From the human T2T-CHM13v2.0 reference genome, Homo sapiens: a stretch of DNA of 64,000 bases. Made by a program: the position numbers and the translations under genes. The stretch lies in the NCBI RefSeq assembly GCF_009914755.1, contig NC_060943.1; one strand, 5' to 3'. Positions 43,872-44,033 of the stretch are shown piece after piece. The notes below the pieces were generated by a model that worked only from the letters and a program-made list of their open reading frames with translations, was not told the DNA's origin and did no database searches. Numbering within the stretch: position 1 is the stretch's first letter; each line of letters begins with the position of its first letter.

Positions 43872-44033
43872 GACAGCTCCTTCAGGGGACACGTTGGTAG
43901 CGTGGAGGACTCCCTCAGGCTTCTCACATCAGAGAGATCATTGTCTCCCAGGCTGAGGAAGTTGAGACTTGTGTTCTCAGTGAGTTTGAGAAAGAGCTGA
44001 CAAATCTGGTAGGTAAGGCCACAGGACTCCAAC
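43872..44033 (-). CDS. NLRP13: Cryptic/skipped in-frame LRR exon in NLRP13 intron 7 (162 nt)
   Basis: gtgatag|G ... TC|gtaagt, phase 2-2, no stop; [54 protein letters not shown]. Confidence 0.6.

What the first reader, a model, noticed from the sequence alone, without database searches (positions are those of the whole stretch)
43872..44033. Hidden, still-open LRR exon in NLRP13 intron 7
Seen: a 162-nt minus-strand segment bounded by AG and GTAAGT, in phase 2-2 like the neighbouring LRR exons and with no stop. It encodes [54 protein letters not shown], which keeps the LxxCxL...NxSLxxLxLGDNxL...CxLxxL pattern. Recalled: canonical NLRP13 (1043 aa) runs KYLC-LEKC, i.e. it skips this exon. It is 3 codons shorter than the 171-nt norm, lacks the GVxxLCeAL motif, and has a weak pyrimidine tract (ctgtctcggggcctctgtgatag). 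Inference: an ancestral LRR module being lost by acceptor decay, or a rarely included cassette exon adding 54 aa.
Basis: partly seen in the sequence, partly recalled or inferred. Interest (0 to 1): 0.85.

Follow-up and report, generated by a model that had tools for sequence, protein, structure and literature searches.

The report
Unannotated ancient NLRP13 LRR cassette exon
An intact 162-base exon sits unused inside a human NLRP13 intron; it is the human copy of an old leucine-rich-repeat exon that gene models of many other mammals, rhesus macaque included, splice in, so it is an ordinary skipped or alternative exon and not a new kind of element.

Summary
Window 43872-44033 (minus strand) is a 162-nt open segment bounded by AG and GTAAGT. 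It has the same 2-2 phase as every NLRP13 LRR exon, lies in intron 7, and is used by neither RefSeq transcript.

Shape alone is not above chance: 127 comparable open AG..GT segments lie in the non-exon NLRP13 sequence of the window. Orthology makes it real. In 40 of 80 NLRP13 gene models (70 species) the same peptide sits exactly between the exon-7 and exon-8 orthologues. These include two rhesus models, tamarin, lemur, horse, dog, cats, cow and camel. 38 models skip it, and macaque and meerkat have both forms.

The "decay" signs are old. The missing helix motif is absent in all 22 sequences aligned. The 3-codon shortening is shared by the four anthropoids compared. The purine-rich acceptor seems shared with camel.

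Human keeps 26 of 29 conserved positions, like macaque. Both splice sites are weak (acceptor 1.4th percentile).

Verdict: an ancestral cassette exon, intact but unannotated in human. Human usage is untested. Interest is modest.

The parts
43872..44033 (-). Unannotated 162-nt LRR exon (phase 2-2). It encodes 53 full codons plus split codons at both ends. It is the human orthologue of the NLRP13 exon that other mammals place between exons 7 and 8.
   Evidence: sequence, frame, phase. (orthologous matches at the same junction in 40 of 80 models).
44034..44053 (-). Acceptor AG (44035-44034) with a weak, purine-interrupted pyrimidine tract: 11 of 18 pyrimidines and a G-run.
   Evidence: PWM score 0.69 bits, the 1.4th percentile of 222 real chr19 acceptors; 499 of 2385 decoy AGs score as high or higher; 19 of 222 real acceptors have 11 or fewer of 18 pyrimidines.
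43866..43871 (-). Donor GTAAGT. The intron part is a perfect consensus and the exon side (GTC) is off consensus. The in-frame TAA lies inside it.
   Evidence: donor score 3.93 bits, the 4.9th percentile of 206 real GT donors; 276 of 2104 decoy GTs score as high or higher.
44034..44066 (-). Intron stretch just upstream of the acceptor. It is homologous to the 11-aa extension that camel NLRP13 isoform X1 encodes by using an upstream acceptor.
   Evidence: P0123 sequence. (tblastn of P0123 residues 876-943 to window 44065-43871, 59% identity); human has no usable in-frame AG there (best alternatives score at or below the 1.4th percentile).
45129..45293 (-). NLRP13 exon 7 (annotated, 165 nt), the upstream splice partner.
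   Evidence: orthologue junctions.
42271..42441 (-). NLRP13 exon 8 (annotated, 171 nt), the downstream splice partner.
   Evidence: orthologue junctions.
43373..43746 (+). Dimeric Alu-like SINE, antisense to NLRP13, 126 nt downstream of the exon's donor in transcript sense. One arm of an inverted pair around the exon.
   Evidence: masked. (inverted arms I1, I2, I5, I9).. (two sub-threshold 7SL/SRP-like monomers on +).
44299..44595 (-). Dimeric Alu-like SINE, in the same sense as NLRP13, 266 nt upstream of the exon's acceptor in transcript sense. The other arm of the inverted pair.
   Evidence: (minimum-energy fold of 43370-44620 pairs the two elements along almost their whole length and encloses the exon).

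Best explanation
SHOWN: the segment is the intact human orthologue of an old NLRP13 leucine-rich-repeat exon. The exon is present in primates, carnivores, bats, perissodactyls, artiodactyls and moles. Gene models of many mammals, including rhesus macaque, splice it in between the orthologues of human exons 7 and 8. Across mammals the models divide about evenly between inclusion and skipping, sometimes within one species.

INFERRED: the exon behaves as a cassette exon of the modular NLR LRR array. Both human RefSeq transcripts skip it. The most likely reason is marginal exon definition: the acceptor and the exon side of the donor are both weak. That weakness looks ancestral, not a recent human lesion. 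A close inverted Alu pair around the exon may add to the skipping in primates.

Inclusion would keep the frame. It would replace the junction C by W, add 53 residues plus S, and give a 1097-aa protein. The insert would be one regular LRR (beta strand plus helix) followed by one repeat that keeps the beta strand and asparagine motif but has a proline-containing, helix-poor second half. The concave face of the horseshoe would gain two strands.

I put about 0.4 on detectable inclusion in human oocyte or early-embryo transcripts, and about 0.5 on the exon being effectively silent in human though not yet damaged.
For: Anatomy and phase.

Orthology: the human peptide matches douc langur at 96% (53 aa), tamarin at 75% with no gap, and bat, camel and goat at 52-59% over 56 aa. 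Each match sits exactly after the ...YLW junction and before LEKCNLS.

Rhesus macaque models P0122 (1121 aa, a cluster of 17 sequences) and P0121 (isoform X3, 1048 aa) contain it. tblastn of P0122 on the window maps every macaque LRR exon to a human exon. It maps this exon to 44032-43871 at 90.7% identity, against 88% for the NACHT exon and 95, 91 and 90% for the exons at 47900, 45129 and 42271.

Tally: 40 of 80 models include it, 38 skip it and 2 are undetermined, across 70 species. Macaque and meerkat have both forms. Close relatives differ: dog versus dingo, two Hipposideros species, and several Myotis species.

Constraint: the lengths 53, 54 and 56 aa are all in frame. 29 positions are at least 80% conserved in 17 non-primates, and human keeps 26 of them (macaque 25, langur 26, tamarin 26, lemur 25). 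Identity to seven outgroups is equal within one residue for human and macaque.

Weak sites. No stop, frameshift or splice-dinucleotide loss in human.

Modular LRR exons and LRR exon skipping are documented for NLRs in PMC6642158 (abstract and passages read).
Against: There is no human transcript evidence of any kind. Both RefSeq mRNAs skip the exon and the table holds no Gnomon model with it.

No human or ape protein with the exon was returned. One search scored 7 of 7 named candidates, and 7 more were left out as unnamed. In one search human, orang-utan and both gibbons skip it.

All 13 other anthropoid models examined skip it too: four colobine and guenon genera, mandrill, one macaque Ensembl model, marmoset, squirrel monkey and owl monkey.

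The models of other species are predictions. I could not see their transcript support, and many may be guided by homology.

Clusters at 90% identity can hide isoforms in either direction.

Sequence conservation has little power here. The whole gene evolves fast (NACHT exon 88% human-macaque identity). Two amino-acid changes on the human lineage are compatible with neutrality (my estimate, from recalled divergence figures).

My splice PWM was trained on 222 acceptors from exon-dense, C-rich parts of chr19. It under-scores T-rich tracts: annotated exon 36104 gets the 3.6th percentile.
Confidence: 0.75

Rival explanations
1. Silent relic (exon death in progress). The exon stopped being spliced in anthropoid or hominoid NLRP13. 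It is open in human only because too little time has passed for a disabling mutation. It has no present function.
For: Both human RefSeq transcripts skip it. All ape models and most monkey models seen also skip it. The acceptor is at the 1.4th and the donor at the 4.9th percentile of real sites. Anthropoids carry an extra one-codon deletion in the first helix and have lost the conserved proline. Over 159 nt an open frame since the catarrhine ancestor is not improbable under neutrality (my estimate: P roughly 0.5).
Against: Macaque, which has the same 53-aa form, has two models that include it. Human keeps 26 of 29 conserved positions and is no more diverged than macaque. Both splice dinucleotides and the GTAAGT donor are intact. 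The weak acceptor seems shared with camel, where all three models seen include the exon.
Confidence: 0.4
2. Primate-specific skipping caused by the inverted Alu pair. The two Alu elements pair in the pre-mRNA and loop the exon out. That turns a mostly included exon into a mostly skipped one, or into a back-spliced one.
For: Inverted arms of 92, 93, 59 and 47 nt (78-92% complementary) lie 126 nt and 266 nt from the exon. The minimum-energy fold of 43370-44620 pairs the elements almost end to end around the exon. Both are 7SL-derived dimers in opposite orientation. Alus are primate-specific, and intronic inverted Alus are reported to promote skipping and circularisation (recalled; no paper read here).
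Against: Control from the Alu map, read by eye against the exon table: the constitutive exons 42271-42441 and 36104-36271 are also flanked by nearest-neighbour inverted Alu pairs less than 900 nt apart. The architecture therefore does not discriminate. Skipping models also exist in many non-primates that have no Alus. I could not date the two Alus or tell whether macaque shares them.
Confidence: 0.15
3. Chance open frame that merely resembles an LRR. Alternatively, the including models in other species are gene-prediction artefacts and the exon was never coding.
For: 127 open, phase-compatible AG..GT segments occur by chance in the same gene region, and this one ranks 12th. On its own it scores below the Pfam LRR_6 cut-off (13.2 against 23.4 bits).
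Against: Matches lie at the identical junction in 40 models from 35 species, with E down to 5e-31. Three length classes are all in frame, and 29 positions are conserved across orders that diverged long ago. Two annotated neighbouring exons also fall below the LRR_6 cut-off when scanned alone (17.6 and 16.5 bits).
Confidence: 0.03

Closest known systems
The orthologous NLRP13 exon annotated in rhesus macaque (P0122, P0121 isoform X3) and in horse, dog, cat, cow, sheep, camel, bat and lemur models
   Same: Same position between the exon-7 and exon-8 orthologues, same phase, and the same W and S junction residues. It is 91% identical to macaque. The conserved LESCGL...[10 protein letters not shown]...LKEL pattern is the same.
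   Different: It is not in any human RefSeq transcript. The anthropoid form has 53 aa against 56 in most mammals.
Alternative splicing of modular LRR exons in NLRs, best known for human NLRP3 exon 5 (Hoss et al. 2019, PMC6642158; abstract and passages read)
   Same: The exon encodes two LRRs. Its borders lie at the same point of the beta strand and its length is a multiple of three. Skipping or inclusion therefore keeps the frame and the horseshoe repeat register.
   Different: NLRP3 exon 5 is an annotated 171-nt exon that is included in the major form, and its loss has a shown functional effect (NEK7 surface). Here the exon is 162 nt, the reference form lacks it, human inclusion is unshown and no function is known. 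That paper does not mention NLRP13 (0 occurrences).
Neighbouring NLRP13 and NLRP4 LRR exons in the window
   Same: Phase 2-2, a GTAAGT-type donor, and the LxxCxL...NxxLxxLxLxxNxL pattern.
   Different: It lacks the helix motif of the second repeat that the downstream NLRP13 LRR exons and the NLRP4 LRR exons carry. It has the weakest acceptor and donor of the set and the lowest LRR_6 score among the five exons that matched (13.2 bits; exon 47900 matched no family). There is no close paralogue anywhere in the genome: the next best hits have E 4.6 and 5.6.
Exons flanked by inverted intronic Alu pairs (reported to shift exons towards skipping or back-splicing; recalled, no paper read)
   Same: An inverted dimeric Alu pair lies within 126 and 266 nt of the exon.
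   Different: Two constitutive NLRP13 exons have similar pairs, so no specific effect is shown.

Membership tests
NLRP-type modular LRR exon (two RI-like repeats per exon) | Symmetric phase identical to the other LRR exons of the gene, so that the exon can be added or removed without a frame change | tested here: met
   all six annotated LRR-region exons are phase 2-2 and the segment fits; the junction codons give W and S.
NLRP-type modular LRR exon (two RI-like repeats per exon) | Length 171 nt (28 + 29 residues), as stated for NLRP3 in PMC6642158 (passage) | tested here: not met
   162 nt in human. The orthologues encode 53, 54 or 56 full codons, and 56 corresponds to 171 nt. Annotated NLRP13 exons of 165 and 168 nt also depart from the norm.
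NLRP-type modular LRR exon (two RI-like repeats per exon) | LRR sequence signature recognised by a curated profile (Pfam LRR_6) | tested here: inconclusive
   13.2 bits, E 0.099, below the 23.4-bit cut-off, and only profile positions 2-17 of 24 match. Annotated neighbours scanned alone give 17.6, 16.5, 29.3 and 27.7 bits, and one gives no match.
NLRP-type modular LRR exon (two RI-like repeats per exon) | Both repeats carry the convex-side helix motif | tested here: not met
   the second repeat lacks it in all 22 sequences aligned. This is an ancestral peculiarity of this exon, not a human change.
Orthologue of a bona fide NLRP13 coding exon | Best match at the same exon junction in NLRP13 of other species, with the frame conserved | tested here: met
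   40 of 80 models from 35 species. All are in frame, and 26 of 29 conserved positions are kept in human.
Cassette (alternatively included) exon | Both inclusion and skipping forms exist for the same gene in the same species | tested here: met
   macaque (P0121 and P0122 against P0131) and meerkat (P0128 against P0167 and P0178). These are gene models only; transcript support was not visible to me.
Cassette (alternatively included) exon | Inclusion junctions observed in human RNA | not testable with these tools
   Reads are off for this job. RefSeq has no including transcript. A human oocyte long-read paper reports translated NLRP13 isoforms only in a supplementary figure that I could not open (PMC13233917, passage).
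Dead pseudo-exon | A disabling change: stop, frameshift, or loss of AG or GT | tested here: not met
   none is present in human.

The most novel reading that the evidence does not exclude
Human oocytes and early embryos splice this exon into part of their NLRP13 mRNA. That would give an unannotated 1097-aa isoform with two extra LRR strands. Anthropoid primates would then have shifted an ancestral, often-included exon towards skipping while keeping it open, so that inclusion tunes the ligand or partner surface of a maternal-effect-type NLRP.
Probability: 0.35. Interest if true: 0.45.

Novelty: new member of a known kind. Interest (0 to 1): 0.3.

Why it matters
If the exon is used in human, the reference proteome lacks a 54-residue LRR module of NLRP13. 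[quoted passage not shown] The exon is also a clean example of how modular LRR exons are gained, skipped or retired without breaking the frame. If it is silent, it is an ordinary relic, and the only lesson is that RefSeq models of different mammals disagree about it.

Tried and rejected
Paralogue search: the peptide against the whole human genome found only itself (E 6e-28). The next hits were at E 4.6 and 5.6, on chr1 near 246.88 Mb and chr11 near 7.12 Mb. A recent duplicate or a copy from another NLRP is therefore rejected.

Other hidden exons: tblastn of the macaque and camel proteins on the window found no further LRR-like match outside annotated exons at E <= 1e-3.

Chance control: 127 open AG..GT phase-compatible segments of 150-180 nt exist, and the finding ranks 12th. 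The anatomy alone is rejected as evidence.

Better alternative acceptors: 11 further AGs up to 44142 were scored. The in-frame ones score 1.08, -5.47, -9.33, -15.77 and -18.28 bits, so none is usable.

Acceptor decay in human: rejected as the explanation, because camel appears to share the purine-rich tract (inferred from protein only).

Inverted Alu pair as the specific cause: not supported, because two constitutive exons have similar pairs (read by eye).

Pfam on single exons: low power.

Selection tests: only amino-acid comparisons were possible, because no non-human DNA was available. Relative distances to seven outgroups show no human acceleration, but 53 residues give little power.

The description of the second repeat therefore rests on sequence alone.

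Literature: five searches found no paper that describes this exon or NLRP13 LRR splicing.
- PMC2735741 (passages) says NLRP13 is widespread in mammals but absent from rodents.
- PMC2447171 (passages) places NLRP13 next to NLRP5 among the genes studied in human oocytes and embryos.
- PMC7479093's 'NLRP13' hits were the chimera name NLRP133.
- PMC13233917 (one passage) mentions translated NLRP13 isoforms in human oocytes only in Supplementary Fig. 4F-G, which is closed. It may bear directly on human usage.
These searches cover only the held library.

Full report
WHAT IS THERE. On the minus strand the window reads ...tctgtgatAG | G TTG GAG ... GAG CTG TC | GTAAGT. The acceptor AG is at 44035-44034, the exon runs from 44033 to 43872 (162 nt), and the donor GTAAGT is at 43871-43866. 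The frame that begins one base into the segment has no stop until the TAA inside the donor.

From the RefSeq table, every exon of the NLRP13 LRR region (47900, 45129, 42271, 39368, 36104, 33280) begins with two bases of a codon already supplied, and all but the last end the same way. The segment fits this 2-2 phase. It lies between exon 7 (45129-45293) and exon 8 (42271-42441) of NM_176810.2. The table holds two NLRP13 mRNAs and no Gnomon model, and neither mRNA uses the segment. It is outside masked repeats.

IS IT MORE THAN CHANCE? Not by its anatomy. Scanning the non-exon NLRP13 sequence of the window for AG..GT segments of 150-180 nt that are open in the right phase gave 127. This one ranks 12th by summed splice-site score, behind several that lie in repeats. 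On its own the peptide reaches only 13.2 bits on Pfam LRR_6, where the cut-off is 23.4. Two annotated neighbours scanned alone are also below the cut-off, at 17.6 and 16.5 bits. The evidence that counts is orthology.

ORTHOLOGY. The protein search sees only proteins of 0.55-1.75 times the query length, so I first searched with the NACHT exon (one search was a frame slip). That search returned partial NLRP13 proteins. Local blastp of the human peptide against the 120 listed proteins gave these matches:
- douc langur, 96% over 53 aa
- tamarin, 75% over 53 aa without a gap
- a Hipposideros bat, 57% over 56 aa
- wild camel, 59% over 56 aa
- goat, 52% over 56 aa

Wherever both flanks are in the model (tamarin, bat, camel, goat), the match follows the ...YLW end of the exon-7 orthologue and precedes the LEKCNLS start of the exon-8 orthologue; the langur model ends at this exon.

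A search restricted to the exon part of the langur protein scored 7 of 7 named candidates (7 more, unnamed, were left out). It added two rhesus macaque NLRP13 proteins, P0122 (1121 aa, a cluster of 17 sequences) and P0121 (isoform X3, 1048 aa), and two camel isoforms.

tblastn of P0122 on the window maps each macaque exon onto one human exon. This exon maps onto 44032-43871 at 90.7% identity. The NACHT exon gives 88%, and the exons at 47900, 45129 and 42271 give 95, 91 and 90%.

The third search used P0122 residues 783-953. It scored 78 proteins at E <= 1e-5 among 144 named candidates, with 227 unnamed candidates left out. This gave a broad panel.

THE PANEL. For 80 models from 70 species I located the best matches to human exon 7, the hidden exon and exon 8.
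- 40 models contain the exon. A few contain it only in part, and one mole model carries an upstream extension.
- 38 models join exon 7 directly to exon 8.
- 2 models are undetermined: a truncated colugo model and a marsupial NLRP14-like protein.

Models that include it come from horse, donkey, dog, African wild dog, eight cat species, meerkat, mink, polar bear, cow, buffalo, sheep, goat, two deer, camel, six bats, two moles, ring-tailed lemur, tamarin, douc langur and macaque.

Macaque and meerkat have both forms. Close relatives disagree: dog against dingo, two Hipposideros species, and several Myotis species. This is the pattern expected of a cassette exon, or of annotation that depends on which transcripts were sampled. 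It is not the pattern of a clean lineage-specific loss.

From recalled knowledge of the NCBI pipeline, extra 'isoform X' models usually need transcript support. An unusual model such as macaque X3 joins the NACHT exon directly to this exon, and it would hardly arise from homology alone. I could not check this.

ARE THE 'DECAY' SIGNS REAL? I aligned 22 versions of the exon.
- All 22 lack the helix motif that the other NLRP13 and NLRP4 LRR exons carry in their second repeat. Most have a proline there. This is an old property of the exon.
- Length is 56 aa in most species, 54 in canids and lemur, and 53 in human, macaque, langur and tamarin. Every variant is in frame, and the anthropoid form predates the split of New and Old World monkeys.
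- Of 29 positions that are at least 80% conserved among the 17 non-primates, human keeps 26. Macaque keeps 25, langur 26, tamarin 26 and lemur 25.
- Identity to lemur, horse, dog, camel, cow, a bat and a cat is equal within one residue for human and macaque.
- By parsimony on the four anthropoids, the human lineage has two conservative changes and the macaque lineage three.

There is thus no sign that the human copy has drifted faster than the macaque copy that is annotated as coding. The test is weak, because the whole gene evolves quickly.

SPLICE SITES. I trained simple weight matrices on 222 acceptors and 206 GT donors of MANE-select transcripts in twenty 10-kb pieces of chr19.
- The acceptor scores 0.69 bits, the 1.4th percentile of real sites. 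499 of 2385 decoy AGs in the gene region do as well.
- The donor scores 3.93 bits, the 4.9th percentile. 276 of 2104 decoy GTs do as well.
- These are the lowest values among the NLRP13 and NLRP4 LRR exons.
- The matrix is biased towards C-rich tracts, and one annotated exon gets only the 3.6th percentile.
- By a plain pyrimidine count (11 of 18), 19 of 222 real acceptors are as poor or poorer.

The sites are therefore weak but within the range of real ones.

Camel isoform X1 uses an acceptor 33 nt further upstream and so translates the tract itself, as ...T-R-G-L-L-G-R before LESCGL. The human in-frame reading of the homologous bases is S-R-G-L-C-D-R. The arginine and glycine codons that make the human G-run are thus present in camel too, and all three camel models include the exon. 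I infer, from protein only, that the poor tract is ancestral.

THE ALU PAIR. The exon lies between two dimeric, 7SL-derived SINEs in opposite orientation. One is at 43373-43746 on the plus strand and the other at 44299-44595 on the minus strand. Folded in isolation, the pre-mRNA stretch 43370-44620 pairs them almost end to end around the exon. Such pairs are said to favour skipping or back-splicing (recalled). They would be primate-specific, which fits the excess of skipping models among anthropoids. The control fails, however. Reading the Alu map against the exon table, the constitutive exons 42271-42441 and 36104-36271 are also bracketed by inverted nearest-neighbour Alus less than 900 nt apart. 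I keep this only as a possible contributor.

HOW IT MOST LIKELY WORKS.
Shown: this is an old, frame-neutral LRR exon of NLRP13 that is intact in human and skipped in the reference transcripts.
Inferred: it is a cassette exon with marginal exon definition in many mammals. In human it is mostly or wholly skipped. Inclusion would give a 1097-aa protein with one regular LRR and one helix-poor repeat inserted after the second LRR exon.

The modular design of NLR LRR arrays, with borders at the same point of the beta strand, is described in PMC6642158 (passages). That design makes either form foldable in principle. I could not model the structure.

NLRP13 is widespread in mammals except rodents (PMC2735741, passages). 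It groups with NLRP5 among the NLRPs studied in human oocytes and embryos (PMC2447171, passages). Oocyte and embryo RNA is therefore where inclusion should be sought. A 2026 long-read study of human oocytes mentions translated NLRP13 isoforms, but only in a supplementary figure that I could not see (PMC13233917, passage).

NOVELTY AND VERDICT. The exon is already annotated in other species, macaque included. LRR exon skipping in NLRs is a known phenomenon. What may be new is only that the human annotation lacks an intact, conserved exon. I rate it a new member of a known kind, with interest 0.3. The boldest reading not excluded is a real 1097-aa human oocyte isoform, at a probability of about 0.35.

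Noticed in passing
window 43373-43746 (+) and 44299-44595 (-): An inverted pair of dimeric Alu-like SINEs brackets the hidden exon and is predicted to pair end to end in the pre-mRNA. Two constitutive NLRP13 exons (42271-42441 and 36104-36271) have similar inverted pairs, so no specific effect is shown.
   Followed up: yes
window 44034-44066 (-); P0123 residues about 876-886: Camel NLRP13 isoform X1 uses an acceptor 33 nt upstream of the orthologous exon and encodes 11 extra residues that align to the human intron bases. Human has no AG at that place. A mole model (P0176) also reads further upstream.
   Followed up: partly
window 61241-62362 (-); P0122 residues 108-197: Macaque NLRP13 has four 23-residue acidic repeat units after the pyrin domain, where the human window has three small exons (66, 69 and 69 nt). 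tblastn found no fourth copy in the human window.
   Followed up: no
P0154-P0157, P0162, P0164, P0165 (cats); P0121 (macaque X3): Other LRR exons of NLRP13 are also variably used in gene models. Several cat isoforms include this exon but skip the exon-8 orthologue. Macaque X3 skips the exon-6 and exon-7 orthologues and joins the NACHT exon straight to this exon.
   Followed up: no
window 42798-42956 (-): An open, phase-compatible 159-nt AG..GT segment inside a masked Alu-like repeat has much better site scores (acceptor 9.99, donor 4.47) than the hidden exon. It is a possible Alu exonisation candidate with no homology support.
   Followed up: no
window 42705-42856: A TA/CA-rich microsatellite of about 150 nt interrupts the Alu-like repeat just upstream (in transcript sense) of exon 8.
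   Followed up: no
window 43521-43670 and 44335-44666: There are sub-threshold Rfam matches to the miRNA families mir-1972, mir-3135, mir-1268 and mir-619 inside the two Alus. All are far below the gathering scores, so I read them as families built from Alu-derived hairpins and not as genes here.
   Followed up: no
window 43868-43870 (-); P0001 C-terminus: The donor GTAAGT contains an in-frame TAA, so failure to splice the donor ends the protein one residue after the exon. The douc langur model P0001 ends exactly this way, which looks like an ab initio model reading through the donor.
   Followed up: partly
window 49043-50630 (-): The NACHT exon is only 88% identical in protein between human and macaque, lower than most LRR exons. 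NLRP13 as a whole evolves fast, which limits any conservation argument for single exons.
   Followed up: no
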